Of a stretch of 64,000 bases of DNA, positions 18,397 through 32,553 are shown one piece after another. Below the pieces are notes generated by a model. It ran no database searches. It was not told the DNA's origin and saw only the letters and a list, made by a program, of their open reading frames with translations. Position 1 is the first letter of the stretch; each line of letters begins with the position of its first letter. The translations under genes were made by a program, and so were the position numbers. The stretch is from NCBI RefSeq assembly GCF_009914755.1, contig NC_060929.1. One strand, written 5' to 3'. Origin of the DNA: the human T2T-CHM13v2.0 reference genome, Homo sapiens.

Positions 18397-18820
18397 CTCT
18401 TCCCATTGATGTATGTATCTAATTAACCTTGAAAGTCGTAATAAACGCAAGAGACTGAGAATTTTTGTAAACCTCACAATGCGAAGTGCCCTGGCTGTCT
18501 TGTAAACTTCAGAATCCATTCCTTTTTCTACAATAAGAAAGATATAATCCACTGGGATGGATGAGATGAAGTCAACCACAAACCAGCTTTTTAAATAATT
18601 CATCTTGATCACTTTGGGGTCCAGGATGATTTCAGAACTGTCTTCATTGACAGTCCCAGTCCTAAAATTCATGATCAGGTCCAATAGGAAAACTGTATCT
18701 GATGCCACATTGAAAATAATCCATGGTGTTGTTGTTTGCTCTGTAAAGAATGTGATTCCAACTGGTATGATGACTAGATTTCCAACCATCATTATAAGCA
18801 TTATTAAATCCCAGTAAAAC
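18397..18820 (-). CDS. HCN1: HCN1 exon 2 (424 nt): hyperpolarization-activated cyclic nucleotide-gated channel 1, voltage-sensor S1-S4
   Basis: Minus strand reads acceptor TTTGTTGTAG|G TTT TAC TGG GAT = (R)[33 protein letters not shown]...[23 protein letters not shown], ending at donor GAG|GTAAGA. It has one overhang base plus 141 codons (phase 2 in, phase 0 out). [26 protein letters not shown] and EKGMDSE match HCN1 rather than its paralogues. Confidence 0.97.
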
Positions 18821-19566
18821 CTACAACAAATAAAAAAATCAGATTTTAAGATATAGAAAATAACCAGCCTATCCCCCCCATGAAAAATTATTACTGATAT
18901 ATAGTGAGATCAATAAGTAAAAGAACAAAGAAATGATTTTATTTTTTAAAAATGTAATTCCTTAAATGGCTATATGTTTAAATCTAAGTAAAATTAATAT
19001 ATTCTTAAACCAAGGCATTATGATTATGGAATTCTAAAAATTATGTGATATGAAGCATTATACAAATAAAATCAAAAACATTCATACCCCCATTTATTTA
19101 GTAAAGAGGCAAAAAAAGCAACCTACCTTATACTTAATACAAAATATAGACAGAAACTAGAAAGAAGTATAAGATTAGAAGATCTGTAAGAAAGCCTTTG
19201 GGAAGGCTCTTTGAAGATGTTTTGAATTATTTTAGATGTCAATTTACCAATCATAGATTAGAAAAAAAAACCCAGAAATAAATAGGATACTCTAACAATT
19301 TTAGTTATGCAAATTTATCTCAAGGAATACAGATTAGTTTTGCCATGGAATCTAGAATACACTGGAGTTTTGCAGTACTCCAAATATTTTATGCTTTATT
19401 TTTCTTTTGCTTGAAATAAGAAAACTAATTTTGGTCTGATGCTAAAAAGAACTGAGCAAGTTCTACTCCATATTTGAAACTAGAATCTACCTAAAATTTG
19501 TGTTTTTATTACTACTCTATTGAACAACTACTTCAAATATATTGCCACTACTTTTCCATAAAAATT

Positions 19567-19745
19567 CTTTCTTTCTTTCTTTTTTTTTTTTTTTGAGACG
19601 GAGTTTCATTCTTGTTGCCCAGGTTGGAGTACAATGGCACAATCTCAGCTCACTGAAACCTCCGCCTCCCAAGTTCAAGTGATTCTCCTCCCGCCTCAGC
19701 CTCCCGAGTAGCTGGCATTACAGGCGTGCCACCATGCCCAGCTAA
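19567..19745 (-). mobile_element. 5'-truncated AluS (right monomer only)
   Basis: (TTTC)n/poly(T) then GAGACGGAGTTTCATTCTTGTTGCCCAGG, ending at the linker CCCAGCTAA. Confidence 0.88.
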
Positions 19746-20599
19746 AAAAAAATCTTTAACATTTCTAATTTAATTCTGAACATGCCTATGACTACTAAGT
19801 ACCTTTTGAAATATTCTTATCTCAACTTACATTAAAATTGAGAGAAAACCAGGAACTTCATTGCTGGTTTATATAGCTTAACTAAATTAACTAAATTCAC
19901 TTGACATAACTATAGTGTTATTTTTATAAGGGTTCTTTCAGTCTGTTGACACTCCTATTAATCAAATATTTATAGTTGTTACAGTATATACTTGCAAAAA
20001 TGAAAAAATAAACACAACTGTATAATCATGAAATGTATCCAGAAACATGAGTTACTTTATCCTAGTCATAGGTATGTTATTTGAGGAGTTTTGTATAAAC
20101 AATATAAACTTCCATGATAAAAATGTCTGTTTACCAAGATATTTTTGTTTTACATGAATACTCCTACTTAGACTATTTGAGCTACATTTTGGTGAGGTAT
20201 ACATGTGTATAAAGCTTTCAAAGTTACTATCATCTGTAATTAAGAATGACTCCTGAAATAAAAGTACTAGTTGAAGAAAAAACTATAATAGGCCCTATCT
20301 CCCCTGTCTCCAGCCTCAGGATGTTGTAAAGGATAAGCGTTTGTTATTTTGAAGATTTCACCAGTATTTCTGTCAAAACTTGCCTGCAATTTTTGAAACA
20401 ACTGTACAAATACCCATGTCAGCCATACAACATGTACTGGCAGTTTAAATGAAATGGTTTTATATCTTCTCACAATGGAAATGCAAAATATACCATTCAA
20501 CACAATAAGGACAGAGGAGAGATGTAGAGGAGGAGCAATATTGTAACAGCTATTTCACAAAGAAATGGCACCACTAAACTCTAAAATGAAACTGTGTGT

Positions 20600-30100: not shown

Positions 30101-30812
30101 GGGATAAATAAGAATGCCATTTCTATCTAGTATATGTTCTTTTCCCTAAAACAGTATGTTTAAAGATGTTATTTGATATTATACTGCATTGAAGTTTTCA
30201 CCCACTGGCAGCTGCGTATTATCTGATGGAGCAGAATGGGTGATGTGTCAAGGAAGAAAATGATTCTACCAGGAGCATATGTTTCCAGGTCTGTAACAAA
30301 TATCGAGGGTGTGTGGGCAGACCAACATTTGCTGTGGAATATTAAAGAATTAAAGACTGAGTTTCTTTAATTTTCTGAGCAATTCACACCAATCCTACAG
30401 CATACTTTAAGCAGAACTGCCAGTATAGTGAGAAATTTTCCATCACTTACAAACGAATTCAATGAATATCCACTCCAATTCACTACAGTGCCCACAAAGA
30501 ACTCATGTATGTATGTTTCTGCATAGGTATAACAAGAAATGTTTTTGTCCTATCTTCTTTCATCCTTTCCTTCATAATTTAGTGGTACTTATTAAATCTT
30601 TTTTGCTTCAACAGAAAATACACATATGGATGATATGATGTTGCTCAATAGATAACAGAATCCCATTAGTAGGCAGATGTTGCACTTGCTTTTTTTATGT
30701 AGGCCAGTAACTTAGAGGAAATTTTTAAATTATTTATAAATTTACTAAGTTCTGCAAAAAGGTTTTGTAATTTGCACATTTTGGCTCACTTTTTAAAGAT
30801 ATGGCTTCTACC

Positions 30813-31647
30813 AGAGAGTTAAATCATGAGTGAACTCCCATTTACAATTGCTTCAAAGAGAATAAAATACCTAGGAATCCAACTTACAAGGGATGTGAAG
30901 GACCTCTTTAAGGAGAACTACAAACCACTGCTCAATGAAATAAAAGAGGATACAAAGAAATGGAATAACATTCCATGCTCATGGGTAGGAAGAATCAATA
31001 TCATGAAAATGGCCATACTGCCCAAGGTAATTTATAGATTCAATGCCATCCCCATCAAGCTACCAATAACTTTCTTCACAGAATTGGAAAAAACTACTTT
31101 AAAGTTCATATGGAACCAAAAAAGAGCCTGCATCGCCAAGTCAATCCTAAGCCAAAAGAACAAAGCCGGAGGCATCATGCTACCTGACTTCAAACTATAC
31201 TACAAGGCTACAAGTAACCAAAACAGCATGGTACTGGTACCAAAACAGATAGATCAATGGAACAGAACAGAGCCCTCAGAAATAACGCCGCATATCTACA
31301 ACTATCTGATCTTTGACAAACCTGAGAAAAACAAGCAATGGGGAAAGGATTCCTTATTTAATAAATGGTGCTGGGAAAACTGGCTAGCCATATGTAGAAA
31401 GCTGAAACTGGATCCCTTCCTTACACCTTACACAAAAATTAATTCCAGATGGATTAAAGACTTAAATGTTAGACCTAAAACCATAAAAACCCTAGAAGAA
31501 AACCTAGGCATTACCATTCAGGACATAGGCATGGGCAAGGACTTCATGTCTAAAACACCAAAAGCAATGGTAATGAAAGTCAGAATTGACAAATGGGATC
31601 TAATTAAACTAAAGAGCTTCTGCATAGCAAAAGAAACTACCATCAGA
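30813..31647 (+). mobile_element. Host 5'-truncated L1PA4-like element, 5' part (ORF2 fragment)
   Basis: Encodes ORF2 sequence [14 protein letters not shown]...KETTIR and is interrupted by the young L1. The left TSD AAAGATATGGCTTCTACC (30795-30812) follows a TTTT/AAAG endonuclease site. Confidence 0.93.
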
Positions 31648-32553
31648 GGGGGAGGAGCCAAGATGGCCGAATAGGAACAGCTCCAGTCTACAGCTCCCAG
31701 CGTGAGCGATGAAGAAGATGGGTGATTTCTGCATTTCCATCTGAGGTAACGGGTTCATCTCACTAGGGAGTGCCAGACAGTGGGCGCAGGCCAGTGTGTG
31801 CGCGCACCGTGCGCGAGCCGAAGCAGGGCGAGGCATTGCCTCACCTGGGAAGCGCAAGGGGTCAGGGAGTTCCCTTTCCGAGTCAAAGAAAGGGGTGACG
31901 GACGCACCTGGAAAATCGGGTCACTCCCACCCGAATATTGCACTTTTCAGACCGGCTTAAAAAACGGCGCACCACGAGACTATATCCCACACTTGGCTGA
32001 GAGGGTCCTACGCCCACGGAATCTCGCTGATTGCTAGCACAGCAGTCTGAGATCAAACTGCAAGGCGGCAACGAGGCTGGGGGAGGGGCGCCCGCCATTG
32101 CCCAGGCTTGCTTAGGTAAACAAAGCAGCCGGGAAGCTCGAACTGGGTGGAGCCCACCACAGCTCAAGGAGGCCTGCCTGCCTCTGTAGGCTCCACCTCT
32201 GGGGGCAGGGCACAGACAAACAAAAAGACAGCAGTAACCTCTGCAGACTTAAGTGTCCCTGTCTGACAGCTTTGAAGAGACCAGTGGTTCTCCCAGCACG
32301 CAGCTAGAGATCTGAGAACGGGCAGACTGCCTCCTCAAGTGGGTCCCTGACCCCTGACCCCCGAGCAGCCTAACTGGGAGGCACCCCCCAGCAGGGGCAC
32401 ACTGACACCTCACACGGCAGGGTATTCTAACAGACCTGCAGCTGAGGGTCCTGTCTGTTAGAAGGAAAACTAACAACCAGAAAGGACATCTACACCGAAA
32501 ACCCATCTGTACATCACCATCATCAAAGACCAAAAGTAGATAAAACCACAAAG
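31648..32553. promoter_or_regulatory. L1 5'UTR: CpG-rich bidirectional promoter (sense and antisense promoter)
   Basis: Intact YY1 site AAGATGGCC at 31660-31668 and SOX/SRY sites AACAAA at 32119-32124 and 32219-32224 (L1 +472 and +572). The 906-nt length fits the short 5'UTR form lacking the ZNF93 site. CpG-dense relative to the rest of the window. Confidence 0.9.
31883..32098 (-). CDS. L1 ORF0, full-length 71 aa, sense to HCN1
   Basis: ATG at 32098 in a strong Kozak context (GCAATGG). Translates MAGAPPPASLPPCSLISDCCASNQRDSVGVGPSQPSVGYSLVVRRFLSRSEKCNIRVGVTRFSRCVRHPFL*, the primate L1 antisense ORF0 with a few substitutions. Confidence 0.88.
   Translation of the reverse strand: MAGAPPPASLPPCSLISDCCASNQRDSVGVGPSQPSVGYSLVVRRFLSRSEKCNIRVGVTRFSRCVRHPFL

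What the first reader, a model, noticed from the sequence alone, without database searches (positions are those of the whole stretch)
18397..32098. Predicted in-frame ORF0-HCN1 chimeric channel driven by the L1 antisense promoter
Seen: ORF0 starts at 32098 on the HCN1 strand. Its donor CAG|GTGCGT lies after nt 191 (last exonic base 31908), i.e. 63 codons plus AG. HCN1 exon 2, the next host acceptor 13,087 nt downstream, begins with a single G. The joined sequence reads ...VTRFS-R(AG|G)[11 protein letters not shown]..., in frame and with Arg at the junction, as I recall the native junction also has. Established: the L1 antisense promoter drives chimeric transcripts into host exons (e.g. L1-MET), and ORF0 forms fusion proteins through two donors, SD1 and SD2. 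The HCN1 exon-1 N-terminus contains the HCN domain involved in trafficking and gating. Inference: a lineage-specific isoform could exist in which 63 ORF0 residues replace the cytosolic N-terminus while S1-S6, pore and CNBD remain. It could have altered gating or act as a dominant-negative subunit where L1 is demethylated (embryo, iPSC, neurons, tumours). Phase compatibility alone has a 1-in-3 chance, so expression data are decisive.
Basis: partly seen in the sequence, partly recalled or inferred. Interest (0 to 1): 0.9.

Follow-up and report, generated by a model that had tools for sequence, protein, structure and literature searches.

The report
Intronic L1 in frame with HCN1
A young, probably human-specific L1 retrotransposon in the first intron of the HCN1 ion-channel gene could on paper splice its small antisense gene (ORF0) in frame onto HCN1 exon 2, but nothing shows that this happens, and the product would lack a domain the channel needs to reach the cell surface.

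Summary
The sequence facts are all correct. ORF0 starts at 32098 (minus strand) and is open for 71 codons. Its donor CAG|GTGCGT ends at 31908, after 191 nt. HCN1 exon 2 starts 13,087 nt downstream with a single G. The join reads ...VTRFS-R-FYWDL with no stop through exon 2. The native junction codon is also AG|G, Arg142.

The carrier is a full-length L1 (31648-37693) with a 19-nt target-site duplication, nested in an older L1. It has the 'ACG' mark of L1Hs pre-Ta. ORF2 is whole and ORF1 has a nonsense codon. In this copy the first ORF0 donor is weakened (CAA|GT, against CAG|GT in 29 of 29 nearest copies), so the in-frame donor is the only good one inside ORF0.

No expression evidence was found. 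HCN1 is absent from an EST catalogue of 988 L1-antisense genes, and no paper links HCN1 to ORF0 or the L1 antisense promoter. Base rates are low: 57 of about 3200 genic ORF0 loci are seen fused, and 2.9% of brain and glioma L1 chimeras are spliced. The fusion would remove residues 1-141, including the HCN domain. Its deletion abolishes current and sharply reduces surface expression.

Verdict: this is a real but ordinary coincidence of reading frame. It is an untested candidate of a known kind and is unlikely to give a working channel.

The parts
31648..37693 (+). Full-length young L1, antisense to HCN1: 5'UTR, ORF1, ORF2, 3'UTR and poly(A). The ends are ambiguous by 1-3 nt because they share bases with the duplication and the A-tail.
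   Evidence: The 5' end reads GGGGGAGGAGCCAAGATGGCC and the 3' end carries an A-tail. It is flanked by a 19-nt duplication. The 3'UTR trinucleotide ACG lies at 37572-37574. Per this marks L1Hs pre-Ta; the exact position of the mark is from my recollection.
31648..32553 (+). L1 5'UTR (906 nt), which carries the bidirectional promoter. The published antisense start regions (+300 to +500 and +150 to +250) correspond to about 31947-32147 and 31797-31897.
   Evidence: Length 906 nt, 36 CpG, GC 0.57. The antisense start regions come from Pinson 2022 and Criscione 2016. No promoter activity was measured here.
31883..32098 (-). ORF0, 71 codons plus stop. The ATG falls at L1 nt 451.
   Evidence: Nt 451 agrees with the ORF0 start position given by Garza 2023. 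It has no Pfam match.
31987..31995 (-). SD1 position of ORF0 (last exonic base 31993, after ORF0 nt 106, phase 1). Here it reads CAA|GTGTGG, which is weakened.
   Evidence: crude score 1.1. All 29 of 29 nearest other genomic copies read CAG|GTGTGG. SD1 joined to exon 2 would hit a stop at codon 41.
31902..31910 (-). SD2 of ORF0: CAG|GTGCGT, last exonic base 31908, after ORF0 nt 191, phase 2. This is the donor in the finding.
   Evidence: crude score 5.2. It is identical in 29 of 29 other copies.
31839..31847 (-). Third antisense donor, CAG|GTGAGG (last exonic base 31845, L1 nt 198). It lies after the ORF0 stop, so using it gives no fusion.
   Evidence: crude score 7.3, higher than SD2. It is present in 29 of 29 other copies. 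The 9-mer is the same as the native HCN1 exon 1 donor.
18821..31907 (-). Predicted chimeric intron, 13,087 nt and 65% A+T.
   Evidence: 26 AATAAA and 12 ATTAAA on the transcribed strand. Of 957 AGs, 8 score at least as high as the exon 2 acceptor. No exon-like acceptor+donor pairs lie in the interval.
18397..18820 (-). HCN1 exon 2, encoding the third base of Arg142 plus F143-E283 (S1 to S4 region).
   Evidence: The hub annotation gives the same span. The first in-frame ATG is M149 at 18801.
30812..31647 (+). Left part of the older, 5'-truncated host L1 into which the young L1 inserted.
   Evidence: It aligns to young-L1 nt 4232-5070 at 95% identity.
37694..38675 (+). Right part of the host L1. 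Its 3'UTR trinucleotide is GAG at 38563-38565 (L1PA2 or older).
   Evidence: It aligns to young-L1 nt 5052-6038 at 95% identity. The 19-nt overlap with the left part is the target-site duplication.
32554..33399 (+). L1 ORF1, cut short by a stop after 281 codons.
   Evidence: Pfam finds the trimerisation and RBD-like domains whole, but only positions 1-27 of 65 of the dsRBD-like domain.
33634..37461 (+). L1 ORF2, open for 1275 codons.
   Evidence: Pfam finds full-length endonuclease (11-230) and reverse transcriptase (517-773) matches.

Best explanation
This is an ordinary young intronic L1 whose antisense ORF0 happens to be in phase with the next host exon.

Shown:
- A full-length L1, pre-Ta by its ACG mark and so probably human-specific, inserted into an older L1 fragment. 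It sits 36.9 kb into the 50-kb intron 1 of HCN1, in the orientation that puts its antisense promoter and ORF0 on the HCN1 strand.

Inferred:
- When the 5'UTR is unmethylated, the antisense promoter can fire.
- Only transcripts that start upstream of L1 nt 451 carry the ORF0 AUG.
- Of those, only the ones spliced from SD2 (31908) to exon 2 (18820) would encode ORF0(1-63)-Arg-HCN1(143-end), about 812 aa.
- Other outcomes give no fusion: unspliced run-on into the flanking old L1, use of the stronger donor at 31845 after the ORF0 stop, starts in the +200 region, or early polyadenylation.
- The fusion RNA is therefore most likely absent or present at trace level.
- If translated, the protein would insert in the membrane but lack the HCN domain and the N-terminal export information. 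It would be held in the ER without conducting.

The frame match is a coincidence without biological role.
For: Sequence anatomy.

The ORF0 region is very common. The first look of a search of the window's own assembly found more than 2000 candidate places, of which 40 were scored, all at 98-100% identity. Frame-compatible cases must therefore be frequent.

Base rates:
- 57 of about 3200 genic ORF0 loci were observed fused to an exon (Denli 2015 as quoted by Criscione 2016).
- 44 of 1509 L1 chimeric transcripts in brain and glioma were spliced, 2.9%.
- 13.5% of L1PA1 elements with a 5'UTR gave any chimera.

Start sites:
- The primary antisense start is about nt 400, downstream of the ATG at 451.
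- Of 31 validated chimeras, 12 started in the +200 region, beyond SD2.

Competing signals: a stronger donor lies after the ORF0 stop, and there are 38 poly(A) hexamers in the interval.

No expression record:
- 0 occurrences of HCN1 in the 10 supplementary files of the 988-gene EST catalogue.
- The one HCN1 row in the brain and glioma table belongs to a different L1PA3 about 300 kb away.
- 0 papers hold HCN1 with ORF0, with 'L1 antisense promoter' or with L1PA2.
- The 2 papers with HCN1 and L1HS concern other loci.
- RefSeq lists one HCN1 transcript (hub table).

Loss of function:
- Exon 1 encodes residues 1-141, including R112, S116 and I135, the HCN-domain contacts.
- Deleting the HCN domain in HCN2 abolished current in at least 60 experiments and strongly cut surface expression.
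- Deleting the whole N-terminus did the same, and HCN1 without its N-terminus stays in the ER.
Against: Several features make the fusion path more open than average.
- SD1 is weakened in this copy alone, so splicing from within ORF0 would go to SD2.
- The ORF0 AUG is the only AUG upstream and has a good context.
- My crude scan found no exon-like competitor in the 13 kb, and the exon 2 acceptor is good.
- The in-frame product ends at the normal HCN1 stop, so it should escape nonsense-mediated decay (inference).
- L1-exon fusions are induced in DNMT1-knockout human neural progenitors and include known ORF0 fusions.

The negative literature evidence is weak.
- EST catalogues are shallow.
- The brain study's filter needs 30 nt of non-repeat sequence in the mate read. 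This removes unspliced chimeras of this nested L1, although a spliced read into exon 2 would have passed.
- The 57-fusion table of Denli 2015 and the supplementary data of Jonsson 2019 and Garza 2023 could not be seen.
Confidence: 0.75

Rival explanations
1. A real but non-functional ORF0-HCN1 fusion. In cells where young L1s are derepressed (early embryo, hESC, demethylated progenitors, tumours), the antisense promoter of this L1 produces a recurrent SD2-to-exon-2 mRNA. This would be a new member of the ORF0-exon fusion class. Its protein is made at low level, retained in the ER and degraded.
For: - The path is intact and in frame.
- SD1 is crippled, which favours SD2.
- No competing exon-like unit was found.
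- The class exists and is induced on demethylation in neural progenitors.
- The expected fate of the protein follows from the HCN-domain deletion data.
Against: - No record was found in any source searched.
- Spliced chimeras are a small minority.
- A stronger post-stop donor exists.
- Many starts miss the AUG.
Confidence: 0.17
2. The L1 acts as an alternative promoter without ORF0. Antisense transcripts start downstream of the ORF0 AUG (about nt 400) and splice to exon 2. They carry no AUG before exon 2, so translation would start at M149 inside S1. The result is an N-terminally truncated, non-functional HCN1 or a non-coding chimera.
For: - The primary antisense start is near nt 400.
- No ATG lies between 32097 and 31908 on the minus strand.
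- The first ATG of exon 2 is in frame, at 18801 (M149).
- Most L1-antisense ESTs act as alternative starts that skip the first coding exon.
Against: The lack of any HCN1 record is the same as above. Starts in the +200 region lie beyond SD2, and most such chimeras are unspliced.
Confidence: 0.05
3. One reading: a lineage-specific ORF0-HCN1 subunit is expressed. It either gates differently or acts as a dominant-negative partner of wild-type HCN subunits.
For: - Frame compatibility is confirmed.
- S1-S6, the pore, the C-linker and the CNBD would be retained (inference from the exon structure).
- C-linker/CNBD rings make contacts between subunits, so co-assembly with wild type is conceivable.
- The L1 is probably human-specific.
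Against: - Channels lacking the HCN domain or the N-terminus give no current and little or no surface protein. Altered gating of a homomer is therefore unlikely.
- ORF0(1-63) is 37% Pro, Gly and Ser, has no hydrophobic stretch (maximum 19-residue Kyte-Doolittle mean 0.56) and no family match. Nothing suggests it can replace a three-helix domain.
- By my recollection of Proenza 2002 and Tran 2002 (not read here), N-terminal deletions also impair co-assembly.
- There is no expression evidence.
- The contexts where L1 is derepressed are mostly not those where HCN1 is expressed (inference).
Confidence: 0.03

Closest known systems
ORF0-proximal exon fusion transcripts of primate L1 (Denli et al. 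2015, Cell 163:583). Known to me here only through reviews and citing papers.
   Same: - Antisense promoter in the L1 5'UTR.
- An intact 71-codon ORF0 with a strong start context.
- Donors inside ORF0.
- The L1 lies antisense to the host gene and upstream of a coding exon, in a compatible phase.
   Different: No RNA or protein evidence exists for this locus. SD1 is mutated here. I could not see the list of 57 observed fusions, so I cannot say whether HCN1 is on it.
L1-MET and other L1 antisense chimeric transcripts (LCTs): Speek 2001 (named in reference lists only); Criscione 2016; Pinson 2022; Jonsson 2019.
   Same: An intronic young L1 gives an alternative start that skips the first coding exon(s) of the host gene. 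It is expected when the L1 is hypomethylated.
   Different: Those cases are documented by ESTs, RNA-seq or RT-PCR. HCN1 is not among the 988 EST-supported genes. The only HCN1 chimera in brain and glioma comes from another element, an L1PA3, and is unspliced.
HCN channels lacking the HCN domain or the N-terminus (Wang et al. 2020 preprint, abstract and passages read; Proenza 2002 and Pan 2015 as quoted there).
   Same: The predicted fusion lacks exactly this region: residues 1-141, with R112, S116 and I135.
   Different: Those are engineered deletions, mostly in HCN2. Here 63 unrelated ORF0 residues would stand in place of the N-terminus, and that has not been tested.
L1-lncRNA LINC01876 (Garza et al. 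2023).
   Same: The antisense promoter of a young L1 is active in human neural development. The ORF0 start lies at L1 nt 451.
   Different: That element is an L1PA2 whose ORF0 start codon is lost in humans, and its product is non-coding. Here ORF0 is intact and no transcript is known.

Membership tests
Full-length L1Hs (pre-Ta) insertion | About 6 kb with a complete 5'UTR, an A-tail and a target-site duplication. | tested here: met
   31648-37693, 5'UTR 906 nt, A-tail, 19-nt duplication on both sides.
Full-length L1Hs (pre-Ta) insertion | 'ACG' at the diagnostic 3'UTR trinucleotide ('ACA' = Ta, 'GAG' = L1PA2 or older). | tested here: met
   ACG at 37572-37574. The homologous trinucleotide of the host L1 is GAG, at 38563-38565. 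The exact site is from recollection, supported by the ACG/GAG contrast at the aligned position. This is a single-site call.
Full-length L1Hs (pre-Ta) insertion | Absent at the orthologous site in other apes. | not testable with these tools
   No other primate genome is held.
Retrotransposition-competent (intact) L1 | Both ORF1 and ORF2 open. | tested here: not met
   ORF2 is open for 1275 codons, with endonuclease and reverse transcriptase domains. ORF1 stops after codon 281.
ORF0-exon fusion (Denli class) | Intact ORF0 with a start codon and good context. | tested here: met
ORF0-exon fusion (Denli class) | A usable donor inside ORF0. | tested here: met
   SD2 is CAG|GTGCGT and is conserved in 29 of 29 copies. 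SD1 is weakened to CAA|GT. The scores come from a crude matrix with recalled frequencies.
ORF0-exon fusion (Denli class) | A downstream host acceptor on the same strand, in a compatible phase and with no stop. | tested here: met
   Exon 2 at 18820; 205 codons with 0 stops.
ORF0-exon fusion (Denli class) | Chimeric RNA observed. | tested here: inconclusive
   Nothing was found in the searchable literature and two supplementary catalogues. No RNA data can be queried here, and key tables were not seen.
ORF0-exon fusion (Denli class) | Fusion protein observed. | not testable with these tools
   No proteomic or ribosome-profiling data are available.
Functional HCN channel subunit | HCN domain present and contacting S2 and the C-linker/CNBD. 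| tested here: not met
   The domain and its contact residues R112, S116 and I135 are encoded by exon 1, which the fusion skips.
Functional HCN channel subunit | S1-S6, pore, C-linker and CNBD present. | tested here: inconclusive
   Exon 2 (R142-E283) is whole. The later exons lie outside the window. They keep the native frame by construction, but I did not read them.

The most novel reading that the evidence does not exclude
A human-specific ORF0-HCN1 subunit without the N-terminus is made from this pre-Ta L1 wherever the element escapes methylation or HUSH silencing (early embryo, some neurons, tumours). It co-assembles with wild-type HCN subunits through the C-linker/CNBD ring and holds them in the ER. 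This would lower the h-current in a way no other primate can. The private SD1 mutation of this copy would then matter, because it channels splicing to the in-frame donor.
Probability: 0.03. Interest if true: 0.7.

Novelty: new member of a known kind. Interest (0 to 1): 0.25.

Why it matters
HCN1 is an epilepsy gene. If an isoform driven by a human-specific retrotransposon were real, it would be a neat case of L1-made protein diversity in a neuronal channel.

The evidence points the other way. Thousands of L1s carry ORF0, and a fraction of about one in three to five of those upstream of a coding exon will be in phase by chance. Only a few percent of such loci are seen to splice or fuse. This product would also lack a domain that the channel needs for surface expression.

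What this check adds:
- The prediction is now pinned to exact junction coordinates.
- The copy-specific SD1 mutation is noted.
- The rival products are listed.

A single query of junction databases can now settle it.

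Tried and rejected
Papers and catalogues:
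- Denli 2015, Matlik 2006 and Speek 2001 are not held. The published positions of SD1 and SD2 and the list of 57 fusions could therefore not be checked. I equate SD1 and SD2 with ORF0 nt 106 and 191 from the sequence and from recollection.
After that I asked for no further supplements, so Supplementary Data 2 and 3 of Jonsson 2019 were not seen.
- The breast-cancer long-read paper gave no donor positions.
- The papers that mention HCN1 with LINE-1 or transposable elements concern HERV neighbours, another L1PA3, a de novo insertion or imprinting.

Structure:
I used composition and hydropathy instead.

Sequence scans:
- A scan for an Alu 5' motif in 18821-31647 found nothing. This says little, because only one short motif with up to 3 mismatches was used.
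- The splice scores are from a simple position matrix with frequencies recalled from memory, not MaxEntScan. They serve only for ranking.

Considered and rejected:
- The identical Arg codon at the native and predicted junctions is not meaningful. It follows from exons commonly ending in AG and from exon 2 starting with G.
- I did not search the genome for a retrocopy of the junction, because that would need a joined sequence to be typed.

Full report
**Observation**

- On the minus strand an ATG at 32098 (G at -3, G at +4) opens a 71-codon frame that ends at 31883.
- The donor CAG|GTGCGT has its last exonic base at 31908, after 191 nt of ORF0. That is 63 codons plus AG.
- HCN1 exon 2 runs 18820-18397 on the same strand, behind a pyrimidine-rich tract ending in AG. 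It starts G TTT TAC TGG and translates to [11 protein letters not shown]...HQWEE.
- The two sites are 13,087 nt apart.
- A join made inside a script gives 205 codons without a stop, with the junction VTRFS-R-FYWDL.

- The stretch 18822-18397, in which the acceptor AG plus G happens to read Arg, matches solved human HCN1 chains at R142-E283 without a mismatch.
- Exon 1, fetched from the window's own assembly, ends GAT TTC AG|GTGAGG.
- Its ATG is at window 69267 and its last base at window 68843, both outside the window.
- Exon 1 therefore encodes residues 1-141 plus two bases of Arg142. Intron 1 is 50,022 nt.

**What the element is**

ORF0 sits in a full-length L1 on the plus strand, 31648-37693.
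- The 5' end has the usual G-run and AAGATGGCC motif. The 5'UTR is 906 nt with 36 CpG. The element ends in an A-tail.
- It inserted into an older, 5'-truncated L1 (30812-31647 and 37694-38675). The two halves of the old element align to adjacent parts of the young one at 95% identity. They overlap by 19 nt, which is the target-site duplication.
- ORF2 is open for 1275 codons, with complete endonuclease and reverse-transcriptase matches. ORF1 stops after codon 281, inside its C-terminal domain. The element is therefore not retrotransposition-competent.
- In the 3'UTR the young element reads ACG (37572-37574) where the host element reads GAG (38563-38565).
- Passages of PMC7026601 and PMC7061987 state that ACG marks the L1Hs pre-Ta subfamily, ACA marks Ta, and GAG marks L1PA2 or older.
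- That this is the diagnostic site is my recollection, supported by the ACG/GAG contrast at the aligned position.
- The insertion is therefore probably human-specific. I could not check other apes.
- The ORF0 ATG falls at L1 nt 451, the position Garza et al. 2023 give for the ORF0 start.

**Donors**

ORF0 contains 18 GT dinucleotides. I scored them with a crude donor matrix whose frequencies I recalled from memory, so the scores serve for ranking only.
- Only two sites in the antisense 5'UTR score 4 or more.
- One is SD2 at 31908, with a score of 5.2.
- The other is CAG|GTGAGG at 31845, with a score of 7.3. It lies after the ORF0 stop and so cannot give a fusion.
- The site I take to be SD1 (after ORF0 nt 106, phase 1) reads CAA|GTGTGG here and scores 1.1.

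I searched the window's own assembly with the ORF0 region. The first look gave more than 2000 candidate places, of which 40 were scored, all at 98-100% identity. In the 29 nearest other copies that I fetched:
- SD1 reads CAG|GTGTGG in 29 of 29.
- SD2 is identical in 29 of 29.
- The third donor is present in 29 of 29.
- ORF0 is open for 71 codons in 28 of 29.
- An earlier set of 7 copies gave the same result, but it overlaps these 29.

The G>A at the last exonic base of SD1 is thus particular to the HCN1 copy. SD1 joined to exon 2 would be out of frame, with a stop at codon 41. Its weakening removes an out-of-frame competitor.

**The way to exon 2**

- The only ATG on the minus strand between 32400 and 31908 is the ORF0 ATG.
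- The interval is 65% A+T and holds 26 AATAAA and 12 ATTAAA on the transcribed strand. The normal HCN1 pre-mRNA reads through the same signals.
- Of 957 AG dinucleotides in the interval, 8 score at least as high as the exon 2 acceptor on a crude matrix.
- No acceptor scoring 5 or more is followed within 40-300 nt by a donor scoring 5 or more. The single pair reported lies inside exon 2.
- By simple exon-definition logic, exon 2 is the next plausible exon.

**What the product would be**

The fusion would consist of ORF0 residues 1-63, Arg, then HCN1 from F143 onward.
- This is about 812 residues if HCN1 has 890. That figure is the chain length of one solved entry, and I recall it as the full length.
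- It would lack residues 1-141.
- In the exon 1 translation, R112, S116 and I135 are the residues that Wang et al. (bioRxiv 2020.03.02.973560; abstract and passages read) name as HCN-domain contacts to the C-linker/CNBD and to S2.

That paper reports the following:
- Deleting the HCN domain of HCN2 abolished current in at least 60 experiments and strongly reduced surface protein.
- Neutralising an ER-retention motif did not rescue it.
- Deleting the whole N-terminus abolished current and surface expression (Proenza 2002, as quoted there).
- HCN1 without its N-terminus stays in the ER (Pan 2015, as quoted there).

ORF0(1-63) is 37% Pro, Gly and Ser, has net charge +4, no hydrophobic segment and no Pfam match. 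Nothing suggests it could replace a folded three-helix domain. A structure prediction of ORF0 was not accepted by the tool.

**Expression evidence**

None was found.

Full-text searches:
- HCN1 with ORF0: 0 papers.
- HCN1 with 'L1 antisense promoter': 0 papers.
- HCN1 with L1PA2: 0 papers.
- HCN1 with LINE-1 and 'chimeric transcript': 1 paper, about HERV neighbours.
- HCN1 with L1HS: 2 papers. One concerns an L1PA3 methylation probe and the other a de novo insertion.
- HCN1 with 'transposable element' and 'alternative promoter': 3 papers. Two had already been read and are not about this locus. The third, a review of imprinting, I saw only as a listing.

Catalogues:
- The EST catalogue of Criscione et al. 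2016 covers 988 genes. HCN1 occurs 0 times in its 10 supplementary files.
- The brain and glioma table of Pinson et al. 2022 has one HCN1 row. It belongs to another element, an L1PA3 at hg19 chr5:45,346,483, with the partner read immediately beside the L1.
- The main text of Jonsson et al. 2019 does not name HCN1.
- RefSeq lists one HCN1 transcript (hub table).

Limits of these negatives:
- ESTs are shallow.
- The Pinson pipeline requires 30 nt of non-repeat sequence in the mate read. Unspliced chimeras running into the old L1 beside this element would be discarded. Spliced pairs up to 50 kb apart would pass.
- I could not see Denli 2015 or the supplements of Garza 2023 (closed). I did not request the supplements of Jonsson 2019 after that closure.

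**Base rates**

- Criscione et al. quote Denli et al. for about 3200 genic ORF0 loci, of which 57 were seen fused to an exon.
- Pinson et al. found splicing for 44 of 1509 chimeric transcripts (2.9%). They found chimeras from 13.5% of L1PA1 elements with a 5'UTR.
- Antisense initiation is mapped to +300 to +500 and also to +150 to +250. Of 36 chimeras tested, 19 began near +450, 12 near +200 and 5 upstream of the L1 promoter regions.
- Criscione et al. place the primary start near nt 400.
- Starts below nt 451 miss the ORF0 AUG, and starts near +200 miss SD2 as well.
- A transcript that starts between nt 450 and 262 and splices from SD2 has no AUG before exon 2. Its first AUG is then M149, in frame inside S1.

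**Chance**

The phase match alone is about 1 in 3. By my recollection it is nearer 1 in 4 to 5, because phase-2 introns are the rarest class. The AG|N junction codon can never be a stop. With thousands of ORF0 copies, many such in-phase pairs must exist. The identical Arg at the native and predicted junctions follows from exons tending to end in AG and from exon 2 starting with G.

**Mechanism and rivals**

My best reading (0.75) is an ordinary, normally silenced intronic L1 with a coincidental frame match.
- If the antisense promoter fires, most output is unspliced, starts too far downstream, or uses the post-stop donor.
- The fusion RNA is absent or present at trace level, and its protein would be ER-retained and silent.

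The rivals are:
- A real, recurrent but non-functional fusion in L1-derepressed cells (0.17).
- An alternative promoter without ORF0, giving M149-initiated or non-coding chimeras (0.05).

The shown steps are the anatomy, the phases, the copy comparison and the loss of exon 1 residues. The inferred steps are promoter activity, splice choice, translation and the fate of the protein.

**Comparison with what is known**

- The locus works on paper like the ORF0-exon fusions of Denli et al. and like L1-MET-type chimeric transcripts.
- It meets the sequence criteria of that class: ORF0, a donor, orientation and phase.
- The defining observation, a chimeric RNA or protein, is missing.
- As a channel subunit it fails a defining feature, the HCN domain.

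**Verdict**

- At most this is a new, unverified member of a known kind.
- The interest is low to moderate. The copy-specific SD1 mutation and the probable human specificity make it a cheap and well-defined thing to test. Nothing suggests biological importance.

Noticed in passing
window 30812-38675: Nested L1 arrangement. A full-length young L1 (ACG mark) lies inside a 5'-truncated older L1 (GAG mark, 95% identical). It has a clean 19-nt target-site duplication at 31630-31648 and 37691-37709.
   Followed up: yes
window 32554-33399 and 33634-37461: The young L1 has an open ORF2 (1275 codons, endonuclease and reverse transcriptase whole). ORF1 has a nonsense codon after residue 281, so it is an 'ORF2-only' element.
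   Followed up: partly
window 30826-31674 (+): A 282-codon open frame runs from the old L1's ORF2 remnant across the insertion point into the first bases of the young L1. It has no Pfam match and looks like a chance read-through frame.
   Followed up: partly
window 31839-31847 (-) and L009 4837-4845 (-) (window 68837-68845): The L1 antisense donor after the ORF0 stop (CAG|GTGAGG) is the same 9-mer as the native HCN1 exon 1 donor. It is conserved in 29 of 29 other L1 copies examined.
   Followed up: partly
window 31993 (-): A G>A change at the last exonic base of the first ORF0 donor also turns Gly36 of ORF0 into Ser. It was not seen in any of the 29 nearest genomic copies.
   Followed up: yes
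outside the window: hg19 chr5:45,346,483-45,352,636 (as printed in a supplement of PMC9396940): Another full-length L1 (L1PA3) in a different HCN1 intron. It gave one unspliced antisense chimera in the brain and glioma data. An L1PA3 methylation probe within HCN1 is reported as inversely related to HCN1 expression in PMC9385849. I did not check whether the two are the same element.
   Followed up: no
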